From: a virus
DNA: 29,711 nt
Direction: 5' to 3' (one strand)
IMG/VR virus record: IMGVR_UViG_3300045988_119598
Coordinates: 1 to 29,711 of that record
Under the pieces are notes generated by a model that saw only the letters and a program-made list of their open reading frames with translations, was not told the DNA's origin and did not search any database. Below are positions 1-29,711 of the stretch, piece by piece. The position numbers and the translations under genes are program-made. Every line of letters starts with the position of its first letter. Position 1 is the stretch's first letter.

Positions 1-73
1 ATTTCTTCATCTCCCGCATTGAAGAGATTAGGGTAGCTACTGTTAAGCTCTCTAATAATTTGCAAAAAAAAAC
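1..73. repeat. 73-bp terminal direct repeat, identical to 29639..29711 (circular-contig overlap; unit genome 29,638 bp)
   Basis: Bases 1-73 (atttcttcat...tgcaaaaaaaaac) recur exactly at 29639-29711. A minus-strand ORF reads in frame across the join. Confidence 0.95.
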
Positions 74-550
74 CATTACATCAGTAACAATAGTAATTGG
101 AATCTTATCATATAAATCTTCTGCCAATTCCATTACATCATAACCCTCATTATATTTCTTTCCTTTAGGAATTAAAAAGCATAAGAATATATACTTCTGA
201 TTCTTTTCATATTCTTTATAGAAATTCTGAAAATCAATATACTGAGCAGCAGTCATATTTCTGAGATTTAATTGAACTGTATATTTATTACCATCAATCT
301 CATACTCAGTTTCAGGAACTTTAGATTTATACTTATTTACAATAAAATGAATCTTACTAAGTTCTGCAGATAATTGATCTACTGTCATATTTAATAGAGT
401 ATCTCTAGCTTTATCAGGATTATCTGTAAGTAATGCATAGATTTCAATACTTCTATCTAAATCTGTCATTTTTGCATCACTCATAATAAATGAATTTAAA
501 GCTTGAAATTTCTTTAAAGATACTTCTTCCCATTTAGTTGCTACATTCAT
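1..550 (-). CDS. Tail-assembly-chaperone-like protein, 5' part (frame-0 ORF starts at 550, leaves the window start and continues at 29638; 219 aa in total)
   Basis: ATG at 550..548, one nt after the terL TAG. There are 183 uninterrupted codons down to base 2, and codon 184 spans the junction. The segment YEIDGNKYTVQLNLRNMTAAQYIDF resembles gpG-type chaperones by eye only. It is absent from the track because no stop lies inside this end of the window. Confidence 0.55.
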   Translation of the reverse strand, partial: MNVATKWEEVSLKKFQALNSFIMSDAKMTDLDRSIEIYALLTDNPDKARDTLLNMTVDQLSAELSKIHFIVNKYKSKVPETEYEIDGNKYTVQLNLRNMTAAQYIDFQNFYKEYEKNQKYIFLCFLIPKGKKYNEGYDVMELAEDLYDKIPITIVTDVMVFFCKLLESLTVATLISSMREMKK

Positions 551-551
551 A

Positions 552-1799
552 CTATTTAATTTTAATATTATAATGTCCTTTGTTTGTATTTAATGAGTCA
601 TAGGCTAACATTAATGAAATAACTGTATCATCATTAAATCCTGATGGAGCATTATAACTAACATTTCCAGTTTTTGGATTATATGAAGCCTCATATAGTC
701 TTAACTCATTTAAAAGTTTATCATCTTTTAATAATCCTATCTTTTCATTCTCTAAAGCAGCTTGAAGCTTATTAACTATATCTGCCTTACTCTTATTAGT
801 AGTTAAGAATCGTATAATCCTGATTTTCGGATTCTTCCGAACTAACATATCATAGAAGACACTACCAATTGAGTTTTGTTCAACTTGTACAATCTTTATA
901 AATCCTTGATACTCAGTTAGTATATTTGTTAATAAATCAACTTGCTCTGTTGGAGTTTTATCATTAAAATACTTTATAAAGACCATTTGCCCAGATTCAT
1001 TTAAAGCAGTAACACAAGTATAGTCTTTACCACTTCCAGTAGCCCAGTCTATTCCTATATAAAGACTCTGATAATCTGGTTTTTTCTCAATTACGCAATT
1101 AGCTATATTATTAAATAAACAGCCATCATCATCTGCAAATTCCCCTAAATATTCAGTTCTAAATTTATTTTTTGAGGTTGTAAGTCGATACATCTCTAAC
1201 TTCTCTTTATCTAAAAGCATAGATGTATCTTCTAAAGCCCAATCAAATGATTTATAGAACTTGTCATATTTTGGATCTAGCCCTTTAGTAAAGCAATCAT
1301 AAAAAAATCCTTCTCGAAATCTTGGAGTACTGATAATTAATATTGGCGCAGATCATACATCAGCTATAGGAGTTAATATTTCGAATACTTCATCTGATAT
1401 ATATGCAGCTTCATCTATTACTAATAATCCGCTTACTGTAAATCCTCGTAATGAATCTTTTTGTTCTGCGGATTTAAATAATATTTCACTTCCATTAGTA
1501 AACTCTATTTCTAATAAGGACTCATTTTTCTTTTTAATAAGGTCACATTCCCCAAGAGCTTTTATTATTTCCTTAAATATTTTTCTACTATTAGTTAAAG
1601 TTGGCTCCACTATACAACTAATACTACCTGGATAATTTATAGAGAATCTTAATAATTCATTTTCTGCCATAAATGACTTTCCGCATTGTCTTTTAGCTTT
1701 TACTGTAAATATTTTTCCAGACCTATAAGAGTCATTCATTGCAGTATGTACTTTATATTGATAGATAAATGGTCTGTATCCTTTATATATCCTTGTCAT
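552..1799 (-). CDS. terL: Terminase large subunit (415 aa; one in-frame TGA at 1353-1355)
   Basis: Track ORFs 1353..1799 and 552..1220 share a frame and are separated only by the TGA plus 44 open codons. The joined protein has Walker A (RQCGKSF), Walker B (LLVIDEAAY) and nuclease-domain acidic motifs (IGIDWATGSGKD, FNDDTVISL). It ends TAG 552-554. Confidence 0.9.
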
Positions 1800-2235
1800 T
1801 TATAATTGGATCTCCAAATTTAAACTGGCATTCATTATTTTGAATATTAACTTGAATTTCTGGTTGGTTCAATCCAAACATAGAATTTATTGTTTTAATA
1901 ACTTCAGTAGCAGATCTTACATCATTTTTACTAATAGCAATATCCAATAATGTTTCCAATCTTGTTAATTGTATATGTCTTAAATTCTTTATAAGATTAT
2001 CATTTTTATCAGCAATAATCTTATAAGCTTCTCTAATATATTTAGCAGCAGTAGTTTGTCCAACTCCATATTTAGCTTGAAGTTCTTCACTTACTTTATT
2101 TCTGGACCAACCTTTATTAAATAATCTTGCTGCATAAAGATATTTAGTCTTTTGTTCGTCTACTTGATCCTCTTTTACCTCTTCCTTTCTTGGTCTCCCC
2201 GTTTTCTTCGGAAGTTCCTGATCCTTCACTTTCAT
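1783..2235 (-). CDS. Putative terminase small subunit / DNA-binding protein (150 aa)
   Basis: Basic N-terminus (KKTGRPRKEE) and an HTH-like segment (WSRNKVSEELQAKYGVGQTTAAKYIREA). It lies directly upstream of terL and overlaps it by 17 nt. TAA stop. Confidence 0.5.
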   Translation of the reverse strand: MKVKDQELPKKTGRPRKEEVKEDQVDEQKTKYLYAARLFNKGWSRNKVSEELQAKYGVGQTTAAKYIREAYKIIADKNDNLIKNLRHIQLTRLETLLDIAISKNDVRSATEVIKTINSMFGLNQPEIQVNIQNNECQFKFGDPIINDKDI

Positions 2236-2479
2236 TTGTTTTCAGTTTTTCTTGGTATTCAAAATAGATTGGAGCAATTCTCTTTATAAGATTAAGTATG
2301 CAAGTAGCACAAGCTATACTCATTCTATACTCCTGTTCAATTATATACTCATAAATCTCTTTAATCTTTATTACGTCCTGCTTTTGCACATTTCTGCAGT
2401 AATTAGATTTAGTTGCAGTTATAAACCTATCTTCAAATCCTTTTAAATATTTAAACTGATCTTCTGTTAATTGTTTCAT
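2144..2479 (-). CDS. Hypothetical protein (111 aa)
   Basis: Intact ORF with a TAA stop. Its last 92 nt overlap the next ORF out of frame and encode a low-complexity tail. Confidence 0.5.
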   Translation of the reverse strand: MKQLTEDQFKYLKGFEDRFITATKSNYCRNVQKQDVIKIKEIYEYIIEQEYRMSIACATCILNLIKRIAPIYFEYQEKLKTNESEGSGTSEENGETKKGRGKRGSSRRTKD

Positions 2480-2568
2480 AATTAGCGCTTTTTAGTATAA
2501 GTAAATATAGAAATTAACTTTCCATTCTTGTAATGATAAATAACTTCTGTTTCCATAAAATATAATTT

Positions 2569-2898
2569 TTAATTAATAAGTTTGTATATAACATCTATCA
2601 ACTTAGTAGATGCGTCTTTTAATAATATCATAATATCTTTAATAATTGGAGTCATAAATGCTAATAATGCAATATATCCAACCATTAAAATTGAAAATTG
2701 ACTTGTAATAAGAATATATAGTAATCCAATTCACCAAGTCATACACAAACTGCAATCTAAAGGTTTGAGTCTTCAATCTTCTTTATATGGTATACCTTTA
2801 AATAGCATTTTTCAAATACTATGTTTAAAACTATCTAAAGCTCCAGATAAATCAATTATAAAAACTATTATTGCAGTTATTATAAATAATTCTAACAT
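2569..2898 (-). CDS. Small integral membrane protein (109 aa; three in-frame TGA)
   Basis: ATG 2898..2896 overlaps the preceding TAG; TAA at 2569-2571. TGAs are at 2812-2814, 2773-2775 and 2731-2733, the last directly after TGG (CSLCMTW-W-IGLLY). It has hydrophobic TM-like stretches and is invisible in the standard-code track. Confidence 0.65.
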
Positions 2899-3137
2899 AA
2901 TCTCTCTCTTATTTGTTTAATAAATCTTTGAATTGTAGTATGACTAATTCCTAATATTCTTCCAACTTCTCTATAACTGTGATATTCAGCATATAATATG
3001 ATTACTGTCTTATCTGCCTTATTAAGCTCAAGCCATTTTGGATATATACTTAATAATCTATCATCCATATTTGTAAACATACTATAGTCTATTTCATACT
3101 CATTAAGTAAATCATCAATATTAATCTTCCTTTTCAT
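2892..3137 (-). CDS. Sigma-70 region-4-like / HTH transcription regulator (81 aa)
   Basis: LNKADKTVIILYAEYHSYREVGRILGISHTTIQRFIKQIRERL follows the region 4.2 / LuxR-type HTH pattern, by eye. TAG stop. Confidence 0.55.
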   Translation of the reverse strand: MKRKINIDDLLNEYEIDYSMFTNMDDRLLSIYPKWLELNKADKTVIILYAEYHSYREVGRILGISHTTIQRFIKQIRERLC

Positions 3138-3429
3138 TTAATCAATCCTCCAATTCATCATTTTGTTGTTCAAGTGGCTCTTTAACAATCTCATAATATT
3201 TCTTATAAGTATAGTAATATCTACTTGTTTTACTAAACCAATAATTCTTAAATAATCTTGTAATCCAAAATTTCAATTCATTTTTACTATCAAGCTGATT
3301 TAATTTTGGATTTGATGTTTCCAGAAGGTCTAGTATACACATCTGGAAACAATCATCATCCATTCCAAATTTAAGTTTTAACTCTTGGCAGAAGTCATAA
3401 TATTTGGTAATAATCTCATTATTCGTCAT
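3121..3429 (-). CDS. Sigma-70 region-2-like protein (95 aa to the TGA at 3142-3144; 102 aa if TGA is read through to TAA 3121-3123)
   Basis: DDDCFQMCILDLLE ... ELKFWITRLFKNYWFSKTSRYY resembles sigma region 2.1-2.4 / ECF sigma, by eye. This is the only gene whose track stop is a TGA that does not rejoin another fragment. Confidence 0.45.
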
Positions 3430-3853
3430 TTGCTATATAATTACTAAATTCTGTATTTACATCTATCTTAATGGCTTTCTTTAAAGATAATTCTGTTTTT
3501 AATGAATAGCCATAAGTTCCTTCAAAATCTGTTGTAGAACAACCATATTTCATAGAATCCTTTATAAAGGCTTGTTTTATATCTTTAAATATATATACTC
3601 CATCATCAAATATTATTACTAATACAGAATTATTTCTTGATAAGATATCAAATTTATCTCTATTAATAATAGTAGTTGGATATTTATTAGAATTAAATCT
3701 TCTTCTTTTAACTTCTATTATATAATCAATTCCATTCCAATTAAATGTTCCATCATATCTGGAATAATTATCTTTACATCATTCTATGTCTATATTAAAT
3801 TTCTCTTTAAATAGATTCTTTGTAAAGACTAAGCTTCTTATATCTGTTTTCAT
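3419..3853 (-). CDS. PD-(D/E)XK-type nuclease-like protein (144 aa; in-frame TGA at 3779-3781)
   Basis: ATG 3853..3851 overlaps the upstream TAA (TAATG). The ORF is open to TAA 3419-3421 apart from one TGA. It carries a D...IDYIIEVKRR motif (D-x(n)-E-x-K). Not in the track. Confidence 0.5.
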
Positions 3854-4370: not shown

Positions 4371-4397
4371 GGCAGGTGAAAGTCCTGCCACTTTTTG
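4371..4397 (+). terminator. Hairpin plus T-run in the leader of the plus-strand module (attenuator or end of a short RNA)
   Basis: GGCAGG-tgaaagt-CCTGCC (4371-4389) followed by ACTTTTTG. It lies about 35 nt downstream of the predicted start of the promoter at 4302-4333 and 90 nt upstream of the ATG at 4488. Confidence 0.45.
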
Positions 4398-4405
4398 AAT
4401 CTTAC

Positions 4406-4455
4406 TGTCAAGTTTTTTACTCAAATTTAGTAGTAAGAAAATAAAAATATTGACA
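4406..4455 (+). repeat. Dispersed 50-bp intergenic element, copy 1
   Basis: Invariant 18-mer TGTCAAGTTTTTTACTCA (4406-4423), then TAGTA, then AAATAAAAA, then TTGACA (4450-4455). Orientation is given as written; the functional strand is unknown. Confidence 0.9.
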
Positions 4456-4487: not shown

Positions 4488-6209
4488 ATGAAAACGTATT
4501 TAAACAATCTAATTAATGAGTTACCAACTAACTGCTTATTTGATAAAGGAAAAGTTGGATGTGGAGGAACTTCAATGGCAATTGAATGTGATAAGCCTTA
4601 TGTTATTTGTGTTCCATTTACAAGCTTAGTTGAAAATAAAATTCAACAATATCCAAATGAAAGACGTAAAGAGAAGATATTTGGAGTTTATGCGGGAGTT
4701 ACTATTAAAGAGATTAAAGATTATGTAGATAGTGTTAAATGTCCTAAAATTATTGTTACATATAATTCACTACCAAAAGTTATTTCTGCTGTTAATACTA
4801 AAGAATATAGTTTATTAGTAGATGAATATCATATACTATTTAATCAGTATAGCTTTAGAAAGGATGCTATTAAACCTGTTTTAGAGAATTATACATTATT
4901 TAAGGATTTTACATTTATGACTGCTACACCTCTTGAAGAAGAATTTGTATTAGATGAATTAAAAGATTTAGAATTAGTAAAACAAGAATGGGATGATGTA
5001 ATTGAAACTAAAGTACAAGCTGTTAAATGTAAGAATGTTGAAGCTTCAACTATTAAATTAATTAATGCTGTTCTTAATAATCAGGTTGAAGGTAATGTTT
5101 ATATATTTGTAAATTCTGTAGACTTTATAAAGAATCTTATTCAGAAAGCTAAACTTACAGAAGATAATACAAGAGTTATATATTCTAAAAACAATAAAAC
5201 TAAATTATCAATTCATAATTCTACAGTATTAGATGAACCTAAGAAAATAAATTTATTAACTTCAACAGTATTTGAAGGTTCTGATATTTATGATGAAAAT
5301 GGAAGAATTGTAGTAGTAAGTGATGCTCAAAAAGCTCAAACTCTTCTTGATATCTCTACTTCTATTCAGCAGATTGCAGGAAGAATTAGAAATAGTAAAT
5401 ATTTAAACTGGATAACACATCTTTACTCAACAACAAGATATGCAGATATTAGTTATGAAGACTTTAAAAAGAAGAATATTCAGAATATTGAAGAAACTAA
5501 GATTGCTGTAGATGCTTATAACTCAATGCCTGAAGTTGCAAGAAAGAAGCTTAAGGAATTTACATCTGATGCTTATATTCAAGTAAATGATAACTTTACT
5601 TTTACTTTTGATCCTAATATGGCCAAAGTGGACATATTTAACTTTAAAGTGACAAGAGGCTTATATTCTATTAGAACTAATCTTAATAAGGAATATATAA
5701 AGAATGGGTTTAAAAAAGTAGTAGAATGTGAAGATAATTCTATTAAGATTGATTTTGAATCTGATAATAAACCATTTAAAGATTTAATTAAAGAAGTAAG
5801 AGCTGAGTGGGAAAATAAGTTTAAATTAAACACTCCTATATTAAATGATGCTATTATTAAATATCCTTGGTTACCTGAAGCTATTAGTAAATTAGGATTT
5901 GAAAAGATGGCAAGTTTAAAATATTGTATTTCAGATATTAAAGATGCCTTATTAAAAAAATCTAATAAAAGTGCAGATAACAAAGCTGCTAAGAAGTTGA
6001 ATCAATCAGTTACTCTTGGAATGTGGTATTCTAATTCTGATATTAAAAAGTTTATTAAAGAAGCCTATGAAATTAGTGATATTACTATTACCCCAAAAGC
6101 AACAGAAATTGATAAATATTATGAAGTTAAAAAATGCCAGAAAAGAATAAATGGTAAACAAACTGAAGGTTATATACTTATTAGTAAAAAATTTGTATTT
6201 AATAAATAA
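4488..6209 (+). CDS. SF2 (DExH) helicase-like protein, 573 aa
   Basis: P-loop-like GKVGCGGTS, motif II LLVDEYH, motif III MTATP and motif VI QQIAGRIRN, by eye. No in-frame TGA (5 Trp, all TGG). TAA stop. Confidence 0.6.
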   Translation: MKTYLNNLINELPTNCLFDKGKVGCGGTSMAIECDKPYVICVPFTSLVENKIQQYPNERRKEKIFGVYAGVTIKEIKDYVDSVKCPKIIVTYNSLPKVISAVNTKEYSLLVDEYHILFNQYSFRKDAIKPVLENYTLFKDFTFMTATPLEEEFVLDELKDLELVKQEWDDVIETKVQAVKCKNVEASTIKLINAVLNNQVEGNVYIFVNSVDFIKNLIQKAKLTEDNTRVIYSKNNKTKLSIHNSTVLDEPKKINLLTSTVFEGSDIYDENGRIVVVSDAQKAQTLLDISTSIQQIAGRIRNSKYLNWITHLYSTTRYADISYEDFKKKNIQNIEETKIAVDAYNSMPEVARKKLKEFTSDAYIQVNDNFTFTFDPNMAKVDIFNFKVTRGLYSIRTNLNKEYIKNGFKKVVECEDNSIKIDFESDNKPFKDLIKEVRAEWENKFKLNTPILNDAIIKYPWLPEAISKLGFEKMASLKYCISDIKDALLKKSNKSADNKAAKKLNQSVTLGMWYSNSDIKKFIKEAYEISDITITPKATEIDKYYEVKKCQKRINGKQTEGYILISKKFVFNK

Positions 6210-6227: not shown

Positions 6228-6389
6228 ATGGAAGGTGATATTAAAGAAACAATTAAACAAACTGAAGAGTATATTAAAGAATTAAATAAATGAATACTCG
6301 AATGTAAAGAAGCTACTAAAAGATTTGGTGATATTATAGATAAAGTATTAAAAGATAAAGATTATATGTTTATTTCTAAATTTGATTAA
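6228..6389 (+). CDS. Small hypothetical protein (53 aa; in-frame TGA at 6291-6293)
   Basis: ATG 6228 and TAA 6387-6389. It reads ELNK-W-ILECKE across the TGA and is tightly packed after the helicase-like gene. Confidence 0.4.
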
Positions 6390-6681: not shown

Positions 6682-6709
6682 AAATAGGAGGGTATATGCC
6701 CTCCTATTT
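6682..6709. terminator. Bidirectional hairpin terminator between the convergent plus and minus modules
   Basis: 11-bp perfect stem AAATAGGAGGG / CCCTCCTATTT with loop tatatg. The stop of the minus-strand HNH gene (6704-6706) lies inside it. Confidence 0.7.
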
Positions 6710-7027
6710 CTGTTTAAATCTTTGATAGTTACTAACCGATGAATGAATAGCTTTATGACAAACTGAACATAATGTTATTAAATCCTCCAAATGTTCTTGC
6801 TCATTATATAGATTCTCATACGTCTTATGATGTACCGATAAAGACCTATTTCCGCCTTCCTGAACGCATCAGTTACAAGTTTGGCAGTGATAGTTATCTC
6901 GCAATAATATTTGCTCTCTAATAGCCTTAAAATCCTTTGATCTTATATATCTTTGGTACTTTAAATATTCTTCACTTCTTACTTTCTTTTTCGTCTTATG
7001 AAGCAGTTTACTTGATTTGGAGTCCAT
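6704..7027 (-). CDS. HNH endonuclease (107 aa; in-frame TGA at 6869-6871)
   Basis: RDNYHCQTCN-W-C ... SVHHKTY ... DLITLCSVCHKAIH is a classical HNH / zinc-hook pattern. ATG 7027..7025, TAG 6704-6706. Not in the track. Confidence 0.8.
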
Positions 7028-20903: not shown

Positions 20904-23237
20904 TTAGAAACTTGCATTTGATTCTGTAACTGCAACTTTAGTTTGAACACTGGTAATATCACTCTCAACTACATAACATTTAACAGGTTGATTCAATTCA
21001 TCAGTCTCTTTATTGCCAAGTAAGTTTCGAGTATATTCTACAGGAGCAGTATTTAAAGCAGCAGGAGCAGTAGTTCCTGCATCACTTCCAGAACCTCCAG
21101 ATGAAGGAAGCTGCTCATTCTGGATAGCCTTAACATTAGCAAGACCTGCAATAACTGCTGTAGCTGCTGCAATAGGTGCCAGAATAGGACCTACAAAAGG
21201 TATACCTACCATAGCTTTATATGCACCTTGGGCAGAACTGATAGTATCAATAATAGCTTGAGTAGTAGCTAATGCTTTATACACTTTAAATGATTTCTCC
21301 CTCTGTTTCTCAGATTTTTTATCATCACTAGCTTCTTGTTTAAATACATTAGCTAAAGCTCCACTTAAAGAAGAAGCTACATTCATAGTAGCTTGAATAG
21401 CTTGCTGCTTTTTAGCTTGTCTATCTTTAAATGCTTGCAGATCTGCTTCTCCTCTTGCATTAGCTGCTTCTGATAAAGCTATATCATTAGCATCCTGTTG
21501 CAATTTAATAGCTTGAGATTGATTAGCATATTCTTGTTCTGTTATTAACTTATTGTTATATTGCTCATCTAAGATAGCTTGCTGTTGAGACATCAATTCA
21601 TTTTCTCTTGTAATCCTATCTTTAGTAAGATTATATAACTCTTTATTATAATCTACTGTAGCTTGATATTGCTTTTGAACATCTTTTCCAGATTGATAGA
21701 AATCCGTTGAACCAAATTGTTGAACTCTAGTTTCATAACTTCCAGATTTACCTGCAGATAATGCAGCCTCTTTATTTGCAAATAATTGAGATTCCCTATC
21801 TTGCATTTCTTGTAATGCAGATAATCTGTTTTCTAAGTCTTCCCTATAACTTTCATTATTATTATCTAACCACTCTTTATTATATGCATCATTTATTTGC
21901 TTTAATCTCTTTCTATATTCCTCAACTGTTATAAGCTCTTTATCTTTAGCTGTTTTAAGAGCATCTAATTGATTTTGATATTTGGTATTTAATTCATCTA
22001 ACTCTCTAGCTTCATCATCTAATAGCAGTTTTCTATTCTCTTCATAGAAATCATTGATAACCTTCAGTAAATCAGCGTTACGTTTCTTTGCATCTTCAAT
22101 ATTCTTTAGATAGTTAGCCTTAGCCTCTTCTCTGGCTTTACGCTCTGCAGAGATTTCCATCAGTTTAGTCTTTTCATAAGCTTCAGCAGATTTTTGCATC
22201 AAATCATTTCGCTTCTCAAGATAAGTGTTATAAATACCAGAAGCTTTATCATAAGCTGCTTTTTGATCATCATTTAACTTACTTAAAAAGAAATCAACTT
22301 CATTTGAGCTAGTCTTTAATCTTCATTGTATAGCTTGTGAATACTCCTCCCAAGTGTCATATCCAGATTTCTTAAACTCTTTTCTGAAGTATTTATTACT
22401 CTTAAGTATATCTGTAAATGAATCATTATATGCTTTAGTTACACTTCCAAATTGCTGGAATAATTTAGCATCTAATTCACCTAATGCTTGAGCATAATCC
22501 TTTCAGATTTGTATTTCATTCTTTTTACCTTCAGCTAAATCTCTTTCTCTCTGTCTTTCTAATTCTGCAATTTCTGTATTAGCTTGTGCATAGTTAGTTC
22601 CTCATTGGTCTGTTATATCTTTTAAACCAGAAATACTAATTTCTAAATCATCAATTCCTGATGCTGCTTTAATTGCAAAATCTATTAACATACCAAGAGC
22701 TACAACTAAAGCTCCAATTCCTGTAGATATAATTGCAGACCGTAGCACACCCATTGCTACAGATAATCCTCCAGTTGCAGCCGTAGCACCACCCATTGCT
22801 ACAGATAAGGCTTTAAATGATTTTACTCCATTAAGAATACCTTCACCTAAACCTTTTAATCCTCCAATTCCTTGAACTATAGCAATTGCTGCTTGCAATT
22901 TAACCATAGTTTTTTGAAGATTCTCTGTATCTTTTCCAAATAAAGTGAATGCTGCACTAACAGCTGAAACTCCTCCAGCTAAACCTCCTGCTACTTGATT
23001 GATACTGTCAAACGCCTTAACTGCATTTACAGTTTTACCTTGCATAGATTCTGTAGCAACACCTAACTTATTTTGAACATTAACAAGTTCTTCAAGTTTT
23101 TTAGTATAGTCAGTACTACCAATCTCAAGATCTTCCAGTTCAGCCGTCAAGCCAGCTACTTCTTCTCGTAGCTGCTTGATCGACTTTGAACTAGTTTTAG
23201 TATCTATACTAATTACTTTTTTAATTTCTTCAGCCAT
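20904..23237 (-). CDS. Tape-measure-like / internal virion protein (777 aa; three in-frame TGA)
   Basis: Track ORFs 22602..23237 and 20904..22202 share a frame. The gap is open except for TGAs at 22602-22604, 22503-22505 and 22323-22325. It has Gly/Ala-rich hydrophobic segments plus long coiled coils. TAA stop. Confidence 0.65.
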
Positions 23238-23238
23238 A

Positions 23239-26200
23239 TTAGTTTATAGTTACATTTTTAACAGTATCTTCTGTTAGTGTTAAATTCTCTGTATATTTAA
23301 CTGTTCCTGTAGGTCCATCAGTCACTTCGAATTTAAACTGAACACCTTTTTGAGCATATATTCTATAATTTCCATTATCCCGCATATAAGCCACATTCAA
23401 GAAGTTATCGTTTTCTGTAAGTATCTGATTTACCCCAGTTGGTATAGTGCCACTTGGAGTTTCTAATTTGCCTGTAATAAGAACAGCTTTATTTGGATCT
23501 GGAGTTTGAGTAAACATACATTTAGGACCATCTATGCCTCCTTGTTTATAAAGACTAAAGTAGAAACTTCTTTGGTCATATTTAGTATTCTCATTATAAG
23601 TAACTGTTAATTCTGTTTCTCCAGGTTGCCCAGATTCAGGTGTAATGCTTACAATTTCATTTGGACTATATCATCCTAATTCCCAAGGAATATTAGAAGT
23701 AACTGTAATCTTTTTAGTTCCAGCTTTATAATCTACAACTGGATCTGAATCGTCAAATGATATATACTCACCTAAATTTTGAATTCCAGCTAAATAACTA
23801 TTAATATCTTGAACTTTAATAAATTCACATCTAACAGTAGAATCTGAATTAATATCATAAGCATCTATCTTATTAAGTACCCAGTATGAATCTTCAAAAT
23901 AATAGAATTGTCTAAGTAAATCATATTTAACATCTAAATCATCTAATCTTACAAAGCAGGTGACTTTTTTAGTATTTACATCAAATTGATCATTATAAAA
24001 TTTACTCCAGAATTGGTGATATAAAGTAGATGTCTCAGTATATGTTATATCATCAATATATATCTCTTTAGGTAATCCAAAATCTCAAGAAGATATAACA
24101 TTATAGTCTGATAACATATATCTGGTAAACTGAGGTAATGAAGTCTTCTTTATTGCAATCTTCTTACCAGCTATGTCCCTCTCACTATTAGTATATAAAT
24201 AGCACATCTTCTGATCATTTAATACATTCATTTCTAGAAGATCATCTGTAATCCAGTAGTTTATAGGGTTTCCATCAACATCATTTAATGAAATATTACC
24301 ATTATAAAATACTAAGGATGATGTAATATCCTCTAATGTTTCCTCGTCTCCATCTACAGAAAAGAACATATTTTTAGCAAATATATCATTGCCAGGAATC
24401 TTATATCATTCTGTAGTCTTACTTGGATCTATAAAGTTAACTCCATATAAATCCTGACTTCCAGATTTGATATCAGATGCTAAACCACTAAATAGATTAT
24501 ATGTGATATTATCATTCATAAATGCAGGAACATAAGAACCAGTTGAATTATAGAAATTCCTGTAATACTTACTTCTCCATCTAGCTGAGATGATGTTATC
24601 ATAGATATTATCACTATATAAATCAGTAGTTTCTGAATTAAAGTTATAACCAGTATTTAATCTTTGCTGTCCATATAATTGACTATAATCTTTATTGTAT
24701 TTCTTATAATAATAAGTCTCTGGACCTTCAGAACTCATCTTATAGAATTTCTTATCAAATAATATTGGATTTACATTGAAATCTTTAGAATAGTCTATTC
24801 TCTTACTCCAATCTGAAATTATATTCTTAAAAAAGTTATTTCTAGTATATATTCTAATTGTTTTACTGTCAATATCTTTTGTAAAATACAATCCAAATAG
24901 TTTTGCATAGCTTAGAAGATAATCAGCAGGAGATTGTTCTGTCTTTAATAATAAACTCTTAGTTAATAGAGCATTACTCTGTAATGTGTCTGTAGATATT
25001 ATAAACTCAATAGGAGATGTAAAACTAACTGATATGTTTCCTTTTGGAATAGTTGAAAAGTCTTCACCTCTCTCGTATGTTTCACTTAATAATCCAGTAG
25101 GAGATACTGTATTACCTGTATCCCATATAACATTCAGTTTAATCTTTATATAATCAATCGGAATCTTGAAATCATCAATATTAATATGAAAGAGATTAGT
25201 CTTGGAATTTACATCATAAAATTGTCCGTTCTCAAAATATCCAAAGTGATTCACTCCATCACTTATAGGATTAGAATAATTTCCACTATTAGTAAATCTA
25301 TGAATCTCTGAAGTATATATAACTTGATCATATGTATTAGTTATAGATAACCATACATTAGCATATCCTTTATATGCTGAATAAAAAGGAGGTACTGATG
25401 AACTAAAATACCTTCTAAATCCGAAGTAATATCTATTAGCTATATTTCCAGCTGTCCTACTAAAATTCAAATTAAAGGAGAATGTTGTAGAGAGGCTCCT
25501 TCTAAATCCAGCTTCAGTCAAATCAATAACTCCAGATGAATATTTAATAGTAGAAGATGTTATATCCAACTGTAAAGGACTTAAAACAAACCCTTGATAA
25601 TTAATACCAACATCATAGTTATATGTTCCATCTTTAACTAGAATTCCAGATTCCGCAGTAGATTCAGCATCTCCAACTAAATTAGACAATAGAGGAAGAG
25701 CTATGAATGACTTACTCCAATAAGGATTAGAATTATTAAAGAAACTATCATCAAATATCACATCATATCCAGAATTCTCCTTTCTACAGATCGTTTCTAT
25801 TAACTTACTTAATTTTAAAGCTGGCCTTTGCATATAACTTCTAAGATCTCTTATCTCCCATTCTGTATATGCTCTATTTAAATTAGCTAATCCGTATCCA
25901 TTATATGGAGTATACGTAGTCCCTGATTCAGTTATAGATTTTGGAAATAAACTATCTCCATTAGTATTTATTAGACAAGTCTCATTATCAAAATCTTCAG
26001 GTAATCCATTATATGAAGGTATAAATGTTATATAGTCATATATCTGACTTCCATCTATAGACTTATTTCAATCAAAACAAGTATTTACAAAGTCCTTATT
26101 AATAGAGAAATTCATCTCCTTCTCAGAAGGTAATACATTCCCATCTTCATCTGTTATGAAGTACTGCAATTCCGATAATGTTCTAATAGTGCCATCTTCT

Positions 26201-26598
26201 TTATATTTAAGTCCATAGAAGAAATCTCCTAATCCTCCATATAAAGTAATATTATAAGTAATGACAGCTTGTTTTATAGATATGCTATTTAATTGCATAT
26301 ATCCAGATTCAACTAAATAGCCATTATTATAAATTCCAAAATCAACTCGTTTTGAAGGATCAAAATATACTCCAGAGAAATTACCTTCTTTTATATGGAG
26401 AAATCTATCTAATTTATAAATCTCTCCAAAAATCTTATTATTGTTTTTGTCTCCTGGAATGCTTATAGTCTTACTGAATGAATTTTTTACTATTGTTGGA
26501 TTCTGAAAATCTTCTACAGTATAAGTCATTGGTAACGATATGCCTTCAGAACAATGTACTTCTTTTCCTGCAATAAATAATTTAATATTCTTTCTCAT
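23239..26598 (-). CDS. Large tail/baseplate structural protein (1119 aa; four in-frame TGA)
   Basis: Track ORFs 26068..26598, 24406..25833, 24085..24369 and 23239..23517 are all in one frame. They are joined by TGAs at 26068-26070, 24406-24408, 24085-24087 and 23671-23673, with open codons between. TAA 23239-23241. Confidence 0.7.
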
Positions 26599-26600: not shown

Positions 26601-28781
26601 TTATTTACGATAAGTAGCTTGAGAAGCTTCCACATTAATTGTATAATAGAACTTGTTTTTACCTTGATTAGTATAAGTTTTATATTCGCAATTTGTATCA
26701 GTAATCAATACTGGAGTAATAGTATTATCTTTAAGATTATGCAAATATACTTTAGTACTTTCAATTAAATTAAACATCTTAGAAGCTTGAATATCATTTA
26801 AATAACCAGTATAAAGAATCCAGCTTGAAGTTATAGTATTTAAATACTTATTCCTTGCAAATTCTTGAGATGTATTTAATACTTTGCGAGTATATGTTTC
26901 AGATTTAATCTCATCAGTCTTTCTAACATTACCCTCAACAAGTAATGAATCCCATCCTCCTGCTGAATTAGTATAATATAATACATAACCTTTACCTGTG
27001 GTATCTATATCATATCTAATCTGTCTATCACTAATATTTCCGTCTTCTACAAATCCTACTATTAAATAGCTCCCACAAGGCCATAGTTTATTGCTTAAAT
27101 CTTCTGTATATGTATATCCATTAATTCCAGAATTTAAACTAATATCCATAGCAGTTTGTACTCCATCTACATAAAAAAATCTATTAATTACTCCAGTTCC
27201 AGTTGGTAGAATTCAACTTGATACTAAATATTGTCTTGGATCAACTAAACCAGTAATAGGATCACTTAACATAGTACCTTTAGTCAAATCTCTATCTTTA
27301 TAACTCCAATCATTGAAAAAAGTAATTGGTTTTTCATTTCCAGATGATGTTATTAATGTAAATGGTTTTAAATATTCTGGAGATACTATTGTCTTTGAAG
27401 TATTAAATATAATTCCATTAGATAGATAATTTTCAGCAACATTATTTAATAAAAACTCTACTCTATCAGTTTCTGGATATTTATAAGCTTTGCCAGCATA
27501 TACCATATCCCCTGCATAATCTAAATGATATTCAATAAAATCTGAACTGGTTATCTCATTCCAAACATAATCTTTCCAAATTGGAGATATATCAGACTTA
27601 ACTGATTGGATAATATTAATAGATAAATTAATAATACTTGAACTATTCTTTATAACAGATACTCCAATAGTTGCTTTTCTGGAAGATAATCCAGAATTTT
27701 CTGCAATATTTAAGCTAATAGTTGCTACACCTTGAGAATTTACAGATAACTTCTGTCCACTAATCCAACCTACAGGAATGCTAAATACAACATCATCTAA
27801 GTTATTAGAACCTGTTCCCATAATATTTAATGTAGATGCAGTCCAATTTACTTCATAATTAGTATTAGGAATCACCAAAGAAGTTGCAGCTTGTTTAATT
27901 GGAACTGTAGCTTCAAGGTTATAACCCCCAGAAGTTGTTGCAGTAACCATTGCACTAAACTCCAAATTATTAGTAGTTTTATTCTCTGGAACAGTTAATA
28001 CAAAATAGTTATCAACACTATCCTTTTTAATATTACTAGCTTGAGGACAGGTAACATTAAATGAAGTAATAGTTTCTTCTGCTTTAGTTGTACTTAAATG
28101 AAATTCTTCAGTAACAAAAGCAGCTGCTCCATAAGTTCCAGAAGAAGGAGTTACTACCAATTTTAAATCTTCAGGAGTATTACTCTTTTCAATCTTAAAG
28201 TCATAACTATAACTAATAAGTTTATTAGTATCATAATAAGCCCCTAATTGGATAGTTGCAGTTAAATTAGTATTTCATTGAGTATTAGCTCTTACTGTAA
28301 CTTTAAACTTAATAGAGCAAGAATCTCAATCCAGAACTTCCATATTAACTAAAGCTGTAGCATTAACAACTGCTGCATCTCATTTAATAATATCTGATCT
28401 ATTTAATATATACTCTACTGTATATTCTCCACCAGTATTTGGTACTTTAATGGTGCCATTAGCAGGATAATATCCAGGAGCTTTACTATGTAAATTAATT
28501 GGTAAATCTTCCCCTAATAAAGCAGTAGTAATACCTCTAGGATAAAAATGAAATACAGTAGAAGAATCAGTAGTTATTGTTGTAGGAGATAAAAATTGTA
28601 TTGTACATCCTTCTTTACTTGGATCCTGTATAGTTACATTTAAAGGCCCTTCTTCAGTATAATCATCTCCCCAAGTCCAATAATCATATTCTCCAGTAAT
28701 TCCCCATCCAGGATTATTCCATTTAACAGGAAAACTCCTTGATGCATTATATATTCCTAATTTACTTGGTATAAATGCCAT
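26601..28781 (-). CDS. Large tail structural protein (726 aa; four in-frame TGA)
   Basis: Track ORFs 28380..28781, 27213..28160 (which has a TTG pseudo-start) and 26601..27149 share one frame. TGAs lie at 28380-28382, 28326-28328, 28275-28277 and 27213-27215. TAA 26601-26603. Confidence 0.7.
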
Positions 28782-28783: not shown

Positions 28784-29263
28784 TTAAAAGTTTTTAAATA
28801 CATTATCAACTTGTGTTTCTAAATCTTTTGTAATTGCATCATCTAATAACATATAAGCATCTAACTCGGTTAAAGATTCTTCAAGCAGATGTTTTCCATC
28901 AATTCCTCTTTTAGAAATTTTTCTTGCTATTAAATATGCTAACTGATCAATAGTTGGAAGCGACCCGTTATATGGACGAGGTAATACAGGCTTAGTTTGT
29001 ATTCACCTTTTTATATCACTGATAGGAGGAAACTTTCCTGCATTTCTGCCTTCCTCAACATACTTCCAATAATCTTGTATTTGTAAACTAACTTCATATA
29101 CTTCATCTTGATCTTCAACTATATAATTAAGTGTATTACCAAGAGTTCCTGTATCATCTGAACCAGTTTGTAGTAATTTCTGCCTATATATAGAAAGTAA
29201 TTGTTCTCCATATTGTTTTAAGACAGCTTCTAAATTGGGAAAATCCAAAACTTGATTTGCCAT
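28784..29263 (-). CDS. Hypothetical virion-module protein (159 aa; in-frame TGA at 29003-29005)
   Basis: Track ORF 29003..29263 continues ...PISDIKR-W-IQTKPVLPRPYNG... to TAA 28784-28786, 2 nt before the next ATG. Confidence 0.65.
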
Positions 29264-29305
29264 TTTTACTAAAATATATCATTCTCATATTGAGTATCTA
29301 AACAC

Positions 29306-29330
29306 AAATAGGGAGATTTACTCCCTATTT
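29306..29330 (-). terminator. Hairpin next to dispersed-element copy 4
   Basis: 10-bp perfect stem AAATAGGGAG / CTCCCTATTT with loop attta, 3 nt from the element. Confidence 0.5.
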
Positions 29331-29333
29331 AAG

Positions 29334-29383
29334 TGTCAAGTTTTTTACTCACTTTTAGTAGTTAAAATAAATAAATCTTGACA
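29334..29383 (+). repeat. Dispersed 50-bp intergenic element, copy 4
   Basis: TGTCAAGTTTTTTACTCA 29334-29351 ... CTTGACA 29377-29383 (perfect 7-bp inverted arms). It starts 2 nt from the TAA at 29386-29388. Confidence 0.9.
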
Positions 29384-29385
29384 TT

Positions 29386-29628
29386 TTAGTGTTTAGCTTT
29401 TCAAAGATCTATTTGTCTTTTTTCTTCTTTCCCTTTATCAAGTAAGTAGCAAATAATATTCAAAAACTCTTGAATCTGCATATCATATACTTGATGTCAA
29501 TTTAACCTTGTTACTTCGCTAACTCTATCTATTCAACAAATCCAGTTCCATTTTTGACTAAATTCAGAGTTTGTCTCGCCTGAACTATCCTCTTCCGTAA
29601 TTGATACTTCTTTACTGGATCTTTCTCC
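29386..29628 (-). CDS. -1-frame extension of the chaperone-like gene (80 codons; three in-frame TGA), probable gpGT-type frameshift product
   Basis: It has no start codon of its own. It is open from the slippery site to TAA 29386-29388 only if the TGAs (29533-29535, 29497-29499, 29401-29403) are sense. It reads ...SQKWNWIC-W-IDRVSEVTRLN-W-HQVYDMQIQEFLNII... Confidence 0.5.
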
Positions 29629-29711
29629 TTTTTCATCAATTTCTTCATCTCCCGCATTGAAGAGATTAGGGTAGCTACTGTTAAGCTCTCTAATAATTTG
29701 CAAAAAAAAAC
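29529..29711 (-). CDS. Chaperone-like protein, 3' part of the frame-0 ORF begun at 550 (29639..29711 duplicates 1..73)
   Basis: It continues ...SMREMKKLMKKEKDPVKKYQLRKRIVQARQTLNLVKNGTGFVE to TAG 29529-29531. Confidence 0.55.
   Translation of the reverse strand, partial: VFFCKLLESLTVATLISSMREMKKLMKKEKDPVKKYQLRKRIVQARQTLNLVKNGTGFVE
29628..29634 (-). other. Candidate -1 ribosomal slippery site G_AAA_AAG
   Basis: Minus-strand ATG AAA AAG GAG. A shift back by one nt at AAA-AAG enters the open -1 frame (GGA GAA AGA ...). Confidence 0.4.
29639..29711. repeat. Second copy of the 73-bp terminal direct repeat
   Basis: Exact match to 1-73. The repeat ends in an A9 homopolymer. Confidence 0.95.

What the first reader, a model, noticed from the sequence alone, without database searches (positions are those of the whole stretch)
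1..29711. Genome-wide reassignment of TGA from stop to sense, best fit Trp (translation table 4)
Every place where two supplied ORFs are collinear and in the same frame is interrupted by TGA only, never TAA or TAG. Translating by hand, I count 38 in-frame TGAs in 18 genes, and all genes then terminate in TAA or TAG.

The TGA positions fall where Trp is expected:
- 12879-12881: the W of the HNH motif ENLE-W.
- 10876-10878: KKYI-W-KYE in the GIY-YIG DNA-binding tail.
- 7093-7095: AS-W-IHLG, next to the third zinc ligand of the M15 endolysin.
- 2731-2733: directly after a TGG (MTW-W).
- 1353-1355: joins the ATPase and nuclease halves of the terminase.

A standard-code annotation would miss or truncate about half of the proteome.
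Basis: partly seen in the sequence, partly recalled or inferred. Interest (0 to 1): 0.9.

Follow-up and report, generated by a model that had tools for sequence, protein, structure and literature searches.

The report
Gut phage reading TGA as tryptophan
This is the complete 29.6-kb genome of an uncultured human-gut phage that reads the stop codon TGA as tryptophan, a phenomenon already described for gut phages, though this whole clade carries no suppressor tRNA of its own.

Summary
The observation and the interpretation both hold. There are no in-frame TAA or TAG, and every gene ends in TAA (31) or TAG (7).

In about 45 related IMG/VR genomes, window TGA sites carry TGA (564) or TGG (271) and GGA only once. 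Window TGG sites carry TGG (1485) or TGA (299). In standard-code relatives, Trp is the commonest residue at TGA sites (23/84; Gly 1/84). TGA therefore means Trp, not Gly.

The window is a complete genome with a 73-bp terminal repeat, from human faecal metagenomes. It has no cultured relative. Sister clades also use code 4, and more distant relatives use the standard code or recode TAG.

"Genome-wide" needs qualifying. Twenty genes have no TGA. The major capsid, portal, protease, holin and plus-strand helicase-like genes avoid it across the clade. TGA supplies only 35% of Trp codons, against 68-88% A-ending in comparable codon pairs.

No tRNA, release factor or Trp-tRNA synthetase is encoded in the window. 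No tRNA-UCA was found in any related locus. How TGA is decoded is unresolved. An endolysin plus holin and the lack of Shine-Dalgarno sites point to a walled, Bacteroidota-type, standard-code host. This is a new member of a known kind.

The parts
1..73 (.). Exact 73-bp direct terminal repeat (identical to 29639-29711). The window is a complete genome with 29,638 unique bp.
   Evidence: relatives align across the junction
29386..29709 (-). Second ORF (107 codons, no start codon) of an overlapping ORF pair downstream of the terminase. In-frame TGA at 29533-29535, 29497-29499 and 29401-29403.
   Evidence: Clade TGA 99 / TGG 51. W in standard-code relatives at two of the three sites.
552..1799 (-). 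Terminase large subunit, 415 aa. TGA at 1353-1355 (residue 149).
   Evidence: Pfam Terminase_6N and Terminase_6C. This site is TGA 6 / TGG 26 in relatives. W in close homologues, H/Y in distant ones.
2569..2898 (-). 109-aa membrane protein. TGA at 2812-2814, 2773-2775 and 2731-2733.
   Evidence: 2731-2733 is W in 7/7 standard-code relatives.
3121..3429 (-). 102-aa protein of unknown function. TGA at 3142-3144.
   Evidence: TGA 19 / TGG 8 in relatives
3419..3853 (-). 144-aa Hjc/RecU-like nuclease fold. TGA at 3779-3781.
6228..6389 (+). 53-aa plus-strand gene downstream of the helicase-like gene. TGA at 6291-6293.
   Evidence: third-position substitution bias, no TAA/TAG in 32 relatives, TGA in 31/31..
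6704..7027 (-). 107-aa HNH endonuclease. TGA at 6869-6871.
   Evidence: Pfam HNH
7030..7482 (-). Peptidase_M15_3 endolysin, 150 aa. TGA at 7168-7170 and 7093-7095.
   Evidence: Pfam. 7168-7170 is TGG 14 / TGA 1 in relatives. 7093-7095 is W in L114 and in the TAG-recoded relative L045.
7647..8300 (-). 217-aa protein with an N-terminal hydrophobic (probable transmembrane) segment, next to the holin and endolysin. TGA at 8259-8261, 8034-8036, 7863-7865 and 7698-7700.
   Evidence: three of the four sites are TGA/TGG polymorphic in relatives
8727..9410 (-). DUF6712 protein, 227 aa. TGA at 8805-8807.
   Evidence: TGG 14 / TTT 2 in relatives
10861..11526 (-). GIY-YIG / NUMOD3 homing endonuclease, 221 aa. 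TGA at 11041-11043 and 10876-10878.
   Evidence: Pfam. The gene is present in only about 6 relatives, all with TGA.
11672..12661 (-). 329-aa protein of unknown function, in a block with fibre-like genes. TGA at 12401-12403, 12194-12196 and 11693-11695.
   Evidence: clade TGA 57 / TGG 1
12663..13199 (-). NUMOD4 / HNH_3 homing endonuclease, 178 aa. TGA at 12879-12881.
   Evidence: Pfam. Aligns with W of I-HmuI 'NLRW'. TGA 12 / TGG 8 in relatives.
14093..15007 (-). 304-aa protein of unknown function, next to the fibre gene. TGA at 14399-14401 and 14111-14113.
   Evidence: 14111-14113 is W in L111 and L104.
20904..23237 (-). 777-aa tape-measure-like protein. TGA at 22602-22604, 22503-22505 and 22323-22325.
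23239..26598 (-). 1119-aa protein of unknown function (probable tail component). TGA at 26068-26070, 24406-24408, 24085-24087 and 23671-23673.
   Evidence: all four sites are TGA/TGG polymorphic in relatives
26601..28781 (-). 726-aa protein of unknown function (probable tail component). TGA at 28380-28382, 28326-28328, 28275-28277 and 27213-27215.
   Evidence: three sites are TGA/TGG polymorphic, one is TGA in 30/30
28784..29263 (-). 159-aa protein. TGA at 29003-29005.
   Evidence: TGA 5 / TGG 26 in relatives. W in 8 of 9 standard-code relatives and in both TAG-recoded relatives.
4488..6209 (+). Contrast: 573-aa SF2-helicase-like gene on the plus strand. It has 5 TGG and 0 TGA; the clade has TGA 1 / TGG 117.
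17981..18886 (-). Contrast: putative major capsid protein, assigned by size and position only (no family hit). It has 4 TGG and 0 TGA; the clade has TGA 1 / TGG 103. Also TGA-poor across the clade: the 174-aa gene at 17417-17941, the portal at 9410-10492, the protease at 20119-20709 and the holin at 7482-7643.

Best explanation
**What it is.** The window is the complete genome of an uncultivated tailed phage from the human gut. It has 29,638 unique bp and a 73-bp terminal repeat. Nearly all genes lie on one strand. In this phage UGA is a tryptophan codon (genetic code 4), and only UAA and UAG terminate translation.

**Shown.**
- TGA interrupts 18 of 38 genes, 38 times in all.
- TGA and TGG interchange freely at the same sites across about 45 related genomes.
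- Trp occupies those sites in standard-code relatives.
- The trait is shared by sister clades with 59-62% terminase identity.
- More distant relatives with the same gene order use the standard code or recode TAG. One TAG-recoded relative carries a tRNA-CUA.

**How UGA is decoded (inferred).** The phage encodes no tRNA, release factor or Trp-tRNA synthetase, so decoding must be supplied or re-programmed in the infected cell. I think the most likely setting (about 55%) is that described for alternatively coded gut phages. The host would be a standard-code, walled bacterium with Shine-Dalgarno-independent initiation, of Bacteroidota type. UGA would be suppressed by an unidentified route. Candidate routes are:
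- host tRNA-Trp reading UGA once RF2 is blocked;
- a modified or edited host tRNA-Trp;
- a suppressor supplied by another element in the cell.

Suppression that is incomplete or costly would explain two patterns. TGA supplies only 35% of Trp codons, although A-ending codons make up 68-88% of comparable pairs. And the capsid, portal, protease, holin and plus-strand helicase-like genes avoid TGA across the clade.

The alternative is a host that itself reads UGA as Trp (about 30%).
For: **Recoding.**
- In-frame stop triplets: TGA 38, TAA 0, TAG 0. Terminators are TAA 31 and TAG 7.
- Coding density rises from 85% to 96% under table 4. In relatives it rises from 0.69-0.79 to 0.90-0.93.
- Codon exchange with relatives is TGA 564 / TGG 271 / GGA 1 at window TGA sites and TGG 1485 / TGA 299 at window TGG sites.
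- In standard-code relatives W is the top residue at TGA sites (23/84; G 1/84).
- The HNH TGA aligns with W of I-HmuI.
- Substitution patterns stay coding-like after the first TGA.

**Completeness and source.**
- The 73-bp terminal repeat is exact.
- Identical capsid genes lie on 29.7-kb human-gut contigs.
- Metagenome 3300045988 is a co-assembly of human faecal samples (10.1101/2023.07.31.550844).

**No code-change machinery.**
- ARAGORN finds no tRNA in the window or in about 115 related loci, apart from one tRNA-Ser.
- ARAGORN at an 80% threshold finds no UCA anticodon; looser intron- and mitochondrial-mode runs gave only scores of spurious calls.
- Rfam at E<=1 finds no tRNA.
- Pfam and PHROGs find no release factor, aaRS or deaminase among the proteins scanned.
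- The intergenic regions do not fold better than shuffled sequence.

**Host type.**
- Peptidase_M15_3 sits next to a 53-aa two-TM protein, a typical lysis cassette.
- Shine-Dalgarno motifs precede 2 of 34 genes, which is background. The same holds across the whole terminase family, while a control locus scores 47%.
- Five of nine mis-binned standard-code relatives sit in Bacteroidia MAGs.

**Selective avoidance of TGA.**
- The TGA fraction is 0.35, against 0.68-0.88 for other NNA/NNG pairs. It is 0.03 in the TGA-poor genes, where the other pairs are unchanged.
- Clade counts are: capsid 1/104, helicase-like 1/118, 174-aa gene 2/80, holin 0/70.
- Site-level Fisher test gives p = 2e-7, with post hoc grouping.

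Against: **The host is not identified.**
- There is no prophage copy, no integrase and no cultured relative. The best terminase identity to an isolate is 29%, and the capsid protein has no match.
- None of 185,579 GTDB species genomes holds a close relative.
- Lack of Shine-Dalgarno sites and presence of an endolysin are indirect. Some Mollicutes also lack Shine-Dalgarno sites.

**Points favouring a host that reads UGA natively.**
- The whole clade and its sister clades lack a suppressor tRNA.
- TGA occurs in genes just downstream of the divergent promoter region (3121-3853, 2569-2898) and in a plus-strand gene (6291-6293). No transcription unit is TGA-free.
- In sister lineages TGA reaches 0.66-0.69 of Trp codons, close to the neutral expectation. 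There, 74-87% of genes carry TGA. One terminase has 6 TGA and 0 TGG.

**Other caveats.**
- The gene grouping used for the avoidance test was chosen after seeing the data.
- No proteomic evidence exists for this phage.
Confidence: 0.9

Rival explanations
1. The recoding is the same (TGA = Trp), but the phage simply matches its host. The host would be a gut bacterium that natively reads UGA as Trp, with tRNA-Trp(UCA) and no RF2. No phage-driven code change would then be needed.
For: - No suppressor tRNA is found in the window or in about 115 related loci.
- TGA is present in genes of every transcription unit, including the plus-strand unit.
- TGA is never a terminator.
- Sister lineages use TGA for 0.66-0.69 of Trp codons, near the A-ending share of other pairs. 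There, 74-87% of genes carry TGA. That approaches the 90% reported for host-matched code-25 phages.
Against: - The known code-4 bacteria that could host phages (Mollicutes) have no cell wall. This phage has an M15 peptidoglycan peptidase next to a holin-like gene.
- No Shine-Dalgarno sites are used anywhere in the terminase family. Standard-code members are binned mostly with Bacteroidia.
- TGA is under-used in the window clade and almost absent from the capsid, portal, holin and helicase-like genes. That is not expected if UGA were an ordinary codon.
- Relatives include a TAG-recoded phage with its own suppressor tRNA. Recoding in this family is therefore phage-driven at least once.
- There is no similarity to known Mycoplasma or Spiroplasma phages.
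Confidence: 0.3
2. TGA encodes glycine (table 25), as in phages of Absconditabacteria and Gracilibacteria.
For: Coding-density gain alone cannot distinguish table 4 from table 25. Code-25 phages exist in human microbiomes (PMC10746230).
Against: - Across relatives, TGA sites exchange with TGG 271 times and with GGA once. No other GGN appears among the commonest aligned codons.
- Gly is 1 of 84 aligned residues in standard-code relatives, against 23 Trp plus 14 Phe/Tyr.
- The HNH site aligns with a structural Trp.
Confidence: 0.01
3. The TGAs are genuine stops. The collinear ORFs would be separate genes, pseudogene fragments or assembly errors, or would be joined only by rare read-through or selenocysteine insertion.
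For: Public gene calls on identical contigs made with table 11 do split these genes (L034 and L035).
Against: - 38 of 38 interruptions are TGA, whereas TGA is 29% of off-frame stops.
- The same sites are TGG in related genomes.
- Pfam domains and homologue alignments span the TGAs.
- Codon-position substitution bias is unchanged downstream.
- Essential genes (terminase, tail, endolysin) carry up to 4 TGAs, so leaky read-through of about 1% per site could not yield product.
- There is no TGA to TGT/TGC exchange, as Sec or Cys would predict.
Confidence: 0.01

Closest known systems
Alternatively coded (stop-codon-recoded) gut phages using code 4, as surveyed by Borges et al. (bioRxiv 10.1101/2021.08.26.457843). 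This includes small clades of about 22-34 kb (Garnet, Amethyst, Topaz) and large TGA-recoded clades (Jade, Agate).
   Same: - It is a human-gut phage with low GC (29%).
- TGA aligns with Trp.
- TAA is the preferred terminator.
- Lysis and tail genes are recoded.
- About half of the genes are recoded, inside the reported 26-71% range.
- Close relatives use code 11, code 4 or code 15.
- Like 65% of their code-4 genomes, it has no detectable suppressor tRNA.
   Different: - Here the absence of a tRNA is established on a complete, 96%-coding, 29.6-kb genome and across a whole clade. It is not a possible detection failure in a large genome.
- The capsid, portal and protease genes are TGA-free, whereas that study reports structural genes as preferentially recoded.
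- There is no integrase and no code-change module (RF1 / TrpRS / tRNA).
Genetic code 4 of Mycoplasma and Spiroplasma, and their phages
   Same: UGA = Trp, a low-GC genome, and no need for a phage-encoded suppressor.
   Different: - Those hosts are wall-less, while this phage has a peptidoglycan peptidase and a holin.
- There is no sequence similarity to any Mollicutes phage in the INPHARED collection.
- TGA is the minority Trp codon here (35%) and is avoided in the most highly expressed genes.
Code-25 phages of Absconditabacteria and Gracilibacteria (PMC10746230)
   Same: In-frame TGA is dense and is never used as a stop. The phages come from human microbiomes.
   Different: There TGA = Gly and about 90% of genes are recoded. 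Here TGA exchanges with TGG and not with GGN.
crAss-like phages with TAG or TGA reassignment in late-gene blocks (PMC7886860; Mgcod preprint 10.1101/2022.06.29.495998)
   Same: These are gut phages of Bacteroidota that lack Shine-Dalgarno sites, and their stop-codon recoding is unevenly distributed over the genome.
   Different: - crAss-like genomes are about 100 kb and usually carry suppressor tRNAs.
- They show contiguous dual-code blocks. Here the TGA-free genes are interspersed rather than forming one block.
- There is no detectable sequence relationship.

Membership tests
Users of genetic code 4 (UGA = Trp) | In-frame TGA inside conserved protein-coding genes, with reading frames continuing through it | tested here: met
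   38 TGA in 18 genes. Pfam domains and homologue alignments span them. Codon-position bias is unchanged downstream.
Users of genetic code 4 (UGA = Trp) | TGA positions correspond to Trp in homologues | tested here: met
   TGA/TGG exchange is 271 and 299 events against GGA 1. W is the top residue in standard-code relatives. W of I-HmuI aligns with the HNH TGA.
Users of genetic code 4 (UGA = Trp) | TGA is not used as a terminator | tested here: met
   Terminators are TAA 31, TAG 7, TGA 0.
Users of genetic code 4 (UGA = Trp) | A tRNA able to read UGA (anticodon UCA) and loss or neutralisation of RF2 | tested here: not met
   Not encoded by the phage: no tRNA by ARAGORN or Rfam, and no release factor by Pfam or PHROGs. 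The host's complement is not testable with these tools.
Alternatively coded gut phages on standard-code hosts (Borges et al.) | Phage from a human or animal gut microbiome whose code differs from code 11 | tested here: met
   Human-gut contigs; code 4.
Alternatively coded gut phages on standard-code hosts (Borges et al.) | The host uses the standard code | tested here: inconclusive
   No host link was obtained. Indirect evidence is the endolysin plus holin, the absence of Shine-Dalgarno sites across the family, and Bacteroidia bins for relatives.
Alternatively coded gut phages on standard-code hosts (Borges et al.) | Recoded stops concentrated in structural and lysis genes, with early genes in the standard code | tested here: inconclusive
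   Lysis, tail, terminase and homing-endonuclease genes are recoded, and the plus-strand helicase-like gene is TGA-free. But the capsid, portal and protease genes are also TGA-free, and small genes next to the divergent promoter region carry TGA.
Alternatively coded gut phages on standard-code hosts (Borges et al.) | Phage-encoded suppressor tRNA or other code-change genes (present in about 35% of their code-4 genomes, so not strictly defining) | tested here: not met
   None in the window and no tRNA-UCA in any related locus. A TAG-recoded distant relative, L045, does carry tRNA-CUA.
Alternatively coded gut phages on standard-code hosts (Borges et al.) | Close relatives that use other genetic codes | tested here: met
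   L037-L044 use the standard code. L045 and L046 are TAG-recoded. L111 and L114-L117 use code 4.
Code-25 phages (TGA = Gly) | TGA aligns with Gly or exchanges with GGN | tested here: not met
   GGA 1 of 848 aligned codons. Gly 1 of 84 residues.
Phages of Mollicutes (host-matched code 4) | Wall-less host, so no peptidoglycan lysis cassette, and relatedness to known Mycoplasma, Spiroplasma or Acholeplasma phages | tested here: not met
   A Peptidase_M15_3 endolysin lies next to a holin-like gene. No DNA or protein similarity to any Mollicutes phage in 50,697 phage records.

The most novel reading that the evidence does not exclude
A whole clade of small, complete gut phages writes essential genes with UGA = Trp yet encodes no suppressor tRNA, release factor or Trp-tRNA synthetase. 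These are 27-32-kb genomes at about 96% coding density. Two novel readings remain open.

1. The phages re-programme UGA decoding in a standard-code, Bacteroidota-type host by a mechanism not yet described for phages. Possibilities are:
   - a small protein that blocks RF2, so that host tRNA-Trp(CCA) reads UGA;
   - editing or modification of the host tRNA-Trp anticodon;
   - dependence on a suppressor supplied by a co-resident element. Candidates include the 85-168-kb code-4 phages found in the same samples.
2. They reveal an unrecognised walled gut bacterium that natively uses code 4.

The clade-wide avoidance of TGA in the most highly expressed genes would then reflect the cost of that decoding route.
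Probability: 0.4. Interest if true: 0.7.

Novelty: new member of a known kind. Interest (0 to 1): 0.4.

Why it matters
**Practical.** Table-11 annotation truncates 18 of 38 genes of this phage. Public gene calls on identical contigs do show this fragmentation. Any virome pipeline must use code 4 for this clade.

**Scientific.** The recoding itself is a known phenomenon. The useful feature here is the combination of four properties:
- the genome is small and complete;
- there are dozens of close relatives in which TGA and TGG flip at the same sites;
- relatives with the same gene order use the standard code or recode TAG;
- no phage-encoded suppressor is present.

This makes the clade a compact system for asking how a phage gets UGA read as Trp without its own tRNA. 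It also allows measuring what recoding costs, since the capsid, portal and holin genes stay TGA-free.

Tried and rejected
1. **Known relatives with a known host.**
   - Megablast of 25 kb against 50,697 phage records found no match.
   - tblastn with the capsid protein found no match.
   - The best terminase hit is 29% identity, to haloarchaeal and Thermus phages.
   - No host information came from any of these.

2. **Prophage copies in 185,579 GTDB species genomes.** The best hit is 50% identity, on 18-39-kb contigs. These are whole phage genomes mis-binned into Bacteroidia, Clostridia and other MAGs. They are not reliable host evidence.

3. **The one relative on a 148,631-bp contig (L022, L105, L120).** I walked 20 kb outwards. 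The flank is not host DNA. It belongs to a family of 85-168-kb phages that are also code 4. The join lies inside a fibre gene, so it is either a co-assembly chimera or a recombinant.

4. **A hidden suppressor tRNA.**
   - ARAGORN at an 80% threshold gave 7 weak calls, all in coding sequence and none with a UCA anticodon. The looser intron- and mitochondrial-mode runs returned 74-90 spurious calls (one intron-split 'tRNA-SeC tca' with a 1560-nt intron), none credible.
   - Rfam at E<=1 gave none.
   - Three intergenic stretches folded no better than shuffled sequence.

5. **A code-change protein.**
   - Pfam and PHROGs show no release factor, aaRS or deaminase among the proteins scanned.
   - The 144-aa gene at 3419-3853 is the only early-region gene restricted to code-4 lineages.
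   - Its AlphaFold model (pLDDT 88) matches Hjc/RecU Holliday-junction resolvases. It is a DNA enzyme, and it contains a TGA itself. I rejected it.

6. **Sequence context of sense TGA.** The +4 and -1 bases do not differ from those around TGG or all codons. There is no sign of selection against strong RF2 contexts.

7. **PDB alignment of the M15 endolysin.** It did not reach the two TGA positions. They were assessed from relatives instead.

Full report
**The sequence.**
- The window has 29% GC, with genes almost entirely on the minus strand.
- Its first 73 bases are repeated exactly at its end, and relatives align across the junction. It is therefore a complete genome of 29,638 unique bp.
- The capsid protein occurs identically on 29.7-kb contigs from human-gut metagenomes.
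- Most relatives come from IMG metagenome 3300045988, which one paper describes as a co-assembly of human faecal samples (10.1101/2023.07.31.550844).
- Pfam identifies several phage proteins:
  - a terminase large subunit;
  - a portal;
  - an XkdF-type protease;
  - a tail-tip fibre;
  - a Peptidase_M15_3 endolysin beside a 53-aa two-TM protein;
  - two GIY-YIG and two HNH homing endonucleases.

**Checking the observation.**
- I built a gene list by hand. Starts were corrected where relatives have TAA upstream. One gene was joined across the terminal repeat. Four small genes were added because they show third-position substitution bias and no TAA/TAG in 32-33 relatives.
- The result is 38 genes covering 96% of the genome. 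Of these, 18 contain 38 in-frame TGA codons, and none contains an in-frame TAA or TAG. Terminators are TAA 31 and TAG 7.
- In the two off-frames of the same genes, TGA is only 29% of stop triplets. An all-TGA set of 38 interruptions has a probability near 1e-20.
- A mechanical ORF call gives 85% coding density and a mean of 153 aa with table 11, against 96% and 240 aa with table 4. There is no gain when TAG is made sense instead.

**What TGA encodes.**
- Scans of IMG/VR with the terminase and the portal returned about 45 distinct related genomes at 75-95% nucleotide identity.
- Codon-by-codon blastn alignment gives the decisive table:

| Window codon | Codons at the same site in relatives |
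|---|---|
| TGA | TGA 564, TGG 271, GGA 1, no TGT/TGC |
| TGG | TGG 1485, TGA 299 |

- Where relatives have TGA at other window codons, the window residue is mostly Phe or Tyr.
- More distant relatives from GTDB MAG contigs (terminase 36-50% identical) use the standard code. Alignments to them run through the TGA positions. Trp is the commonest aligned residue (23/84; Gly 1/84), and several sites are Trp in essentially all of them.
- The HNH TGA aligns with the Trp of 'NLRW' in I-HmuI, PDB 1U3E.
- Substitutions remain third-position-dominated after the first TGA of each gene.
- Table 4 is therefore right. Table 25, Cys/Sec and true stops are excluded.

**How far "genome-wide" holds.**
- Twenty genes have no TGA.
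- TGA supplies 35% of Trp codons. The A-ending member of the Lys, Glu, Gln, Leu and Arg NNR pairs supplies 68-88%.
- The deficit is concentrated in particular genes and holds across the clade:

| Gene | TGA among aligned Trp codons (TGA + TGG) in relatives |
|---|---|
| Putative major capsid | 1 of 104 |
| 174-aa neighbour of the capsid gene | 2 of 80 |
| Holin | 0 of 70 |
| Plus-strand helicase-like gene | 1 of 118 |
| Portal | 18 of 153 |

- At most other Trp sites both codons occur across the clade. A site-level Fisher test gives p = 2e-7, but the gene grouping was post hoc.
- In those TGA-poor genes the other A/G pairs are unchanged, so this is not a compositional effect.
- TGA is richest in the homing endonucleases, the 329-aa gene at 11672-12661, the tape-measure-like gene, the 217-aa lysis-cassette gene and small genes near the divergent promoter region.
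- No transcription unit is free of it. Even the plus-strand unit has one TGA (6291-6293), conserved in 31/31 relatives.

**How UGA is decoded.**
- The phage brings nothing recognisable:
  - ARAGORN finds no tRNA in the window or in about 115 related loci. The one exception is a tRNA-Ser in a single sister-clade locus.
  - ARAGORN at an 80% threshold gives no UCA anticodon. The looser intron- and mitochondrial-mode runs return only scores of spurious calls.
  - Rfam at E<=1 gives no tRNA.
  - Intergenic regions do not fold better than shuffles.
  - Pfam and PHROGs show no release factor, aaRS or deaminase among the proteins scanned.
- The only early-region gene confined to code-4 lineages is the 144-aa gene at 3419-3853. 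It models confidently as an Hjc/RecU-type resolvase and contains a TGA itself. I rejected it as a code-change factor.

**The host is not identified.**
- There is no integrase, no prophage copy in 185,579 species genomes and no cultured relative.
- Indirect evidence points to a walled host with Shine-Dalgarno-independent initiation:
  - the endolysin/holin pair;
  - Shine-Dalgarno motifs before 2 of 34 genes, which is background. The same holds across the entire terminase family whatever its code, while a control locus scores 47%.
- From established knowledge, absence of Shine-Dalgarno use is characteristic of Bacteroidota and their phages, and Bacteroidota use the standard code.
- I therefore favour the published scenario of an alternatively coded phage on a standard-code host, at about 55%. 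Suppression would be by an unknown and probably costly route, which would explain the TGA-free highly expressed genes.
- Against this, several points fit a host that reads UGA natively (about 30%):
  - the tRNA-less state of the whole clade;
  - TGA in genes of every transcription unit;
  - near-neutral TGA use in sister lineages (0.66-0.69 of Trp codons; a terminase with 6 TGA and no TGG).
- No such walled gut bacterium is known.

**Comparison with what is known.**
- Stop-codon recoding in gut phages, including TGA = Trp, was surveyed by Borges et al. (10.1101/2021.08.26.457843). They report:
  - code-4 phages predicted to infect standard-code Firmicutes and Bacteroidetes;
  - small clades of 22-34 kb;
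  - clades mixing codes 11, 4 and 15;
  - suppressor tRNAs detectable in only 35% of code-4 genomes.
- TGA recoding is rare. In Dutch cohorts it affects 21 of 58,776 viral contigs, against 5,706 for TAG (PMC9610469).
- The present genome fits that picture. Sister clades L111 and L114-L117 use code 4. Standard-code relatives are L037-L044. TAG-recoded relatives are L045 and L046, and L045 carries tRNA-CUA.
- It differs in three ways:
  - the capsid, portal and protease genes are TGA-free;
  - there is no code-change module;
  - the absence of a tRNA is shown on a complete, densely coding genome and across the clade.
- Membership of a named Borges clade could not be tested.

**Verdict.**
- Observation: confirmed.
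- Interpretation: supported.
- Novelty: a new member of a known kind.
- Interest is moderate. The recoding would not surprise a specialist. The tRNA-less clade with graded, gene-specific TGA avoidance is a good small system for the open question of how such phages get UGA decoded.

Noticed in passing
window 1-104 and 29386-29711 (minus strand); T-run at 63-72: **Layout.** Two overlapping minus-strand ORFs lie downstream of the terminase. The first encodes 219 aa (550 -> 1, continuing 29638 -> 29529). The second has 107 codons, sits in the -1 frame and has no start codon.

**Slippery site.** They overlap at a run GG-TTTTTTTTT-GC. The T9 run is conserved in all aligned relatives while the flanks vary.

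**Conservation.** The overlapping pair is also present in standard-code relatives. The second ORF is clearly coding, with conserved Trp sites.

**Reading.** This looks like a programmed -1 frameshift or transcriptional slippage, of the tail-chaperone G/GT type. The run also coincides with the end of the 73-bp terminal repeat.
   Followed up: partly
window 4396-4458, 11611-11673, 20788-20828, 29324-29386: **Element.** Four same-orientation copies of a 41-63-nt intergenic element are present. On the minus strand the core reads GAGTAAAAAACTTGACA, with TGTCA / TGACA inverted ends about 40 nt apart.

**Position.** The four copies sit in the divergent region upstream of the 79-aa gene and just upstream of the 159-aa, protease and GIY-YIG genes.

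**Conservation.** For two of the four copies (11611-11673 and 20788-20828), the surrounding intergenic regions are more conserved than the genome mean (0.93-0.97 against 0.85).

**Reading.** These are probably promoter or operator elements that split the long minus strand into four transcription units. A split sigma-like pair (3121-3429 and the region-4 HTH at 2892-3137) lies in the first unit.
   Followed up: partly
L045 (JAEEVN010000017.1) and L046 (JAGHSX010000037.1): Distant relatives (terminase 34-37% identical, binned in Bacillales and 'Ca. Scybalousia' MAGs) are TAG-recoded. Coding density rises from 0.58 to 0.92 in L045 and from 0.83 to 0.96 in L046 when TAG is read as sense. L045 carries a tRNA with anticodon CUA at 5454-5541. 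The same terminase family therefore holds standard-code, TGA-recoded and TAG-recoded phages.
   Followed up: partly
L118-L131 (for example IMGVR_UViG_3300045988_141593); L105 1-9119; L120: **A second code-4 group.** A family of 85-168-kb viral contigs occurs in the same human faecal co-assembly and in two other metagenomes. They are also code 4: coding density rises from 0.62-0.78 to 0.93-0.99, and TGA supplies 0.64-0.75 of Trp codons. They show no Shine-Dalgarno motifs and no tRNA in the 21 kb seen of each.

**Link to this phage.** They share a fibre segment (about 41% identity over 156 aa) with the window's 771-aa fibre.

**The 148-kb contig.** Contig 3300045988_175865 joins such a large phage to a relative of the window phage inside a fibre gene. 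This is either a co-assembly chimera or a real recombinant.
   Followed up: partly
window 10861-11526, 19506-20117, 12663-13199, 6704-7027: Four homing-endonuclease genes are present (two GIY-YIG/NUMOD3, one NUMOD4/HNH_3, one HNH). They occur in only 6-13 of about 45 related genomes, so they appear to be mobile insertions. Three of the four carry TGA.
   Followed up: no
window 3419-3853: A 144-aa protein is found only in the code-4 lineages of this family. It has 21 homologue clusters in 5.8 billion proteins, all on phage contigs of 31 kb or less. Its AlphaFold model (pLDDT 88) matches archaeal Hjc and bacterial RecU Holliday-junction resolvases, with a conserved D...E-x-K motif.
   Followed up: yes
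window 13355-13439 and 15877-15961: An 85-nt direct repeat (73% identical) lies in both the 224-aa gene and the 771-aa fibre gene. Both encode the same coiled-coil segment (...[14 protein letters not shown]...), so the two fibre-like proteins share a module.
   Followed up: no
L034 and L035 compared with L114-L117 (public gene calls): Public gene calls on contigs identical to the window were made with the standard code and fragment the recoded genes. Calls on sister-clade contigs were evidently made with an alternative code, since they give full-length products that do not translate under table 11. Annotation of this phage group in public collections is therefore inconsistent.
   Followed up: no
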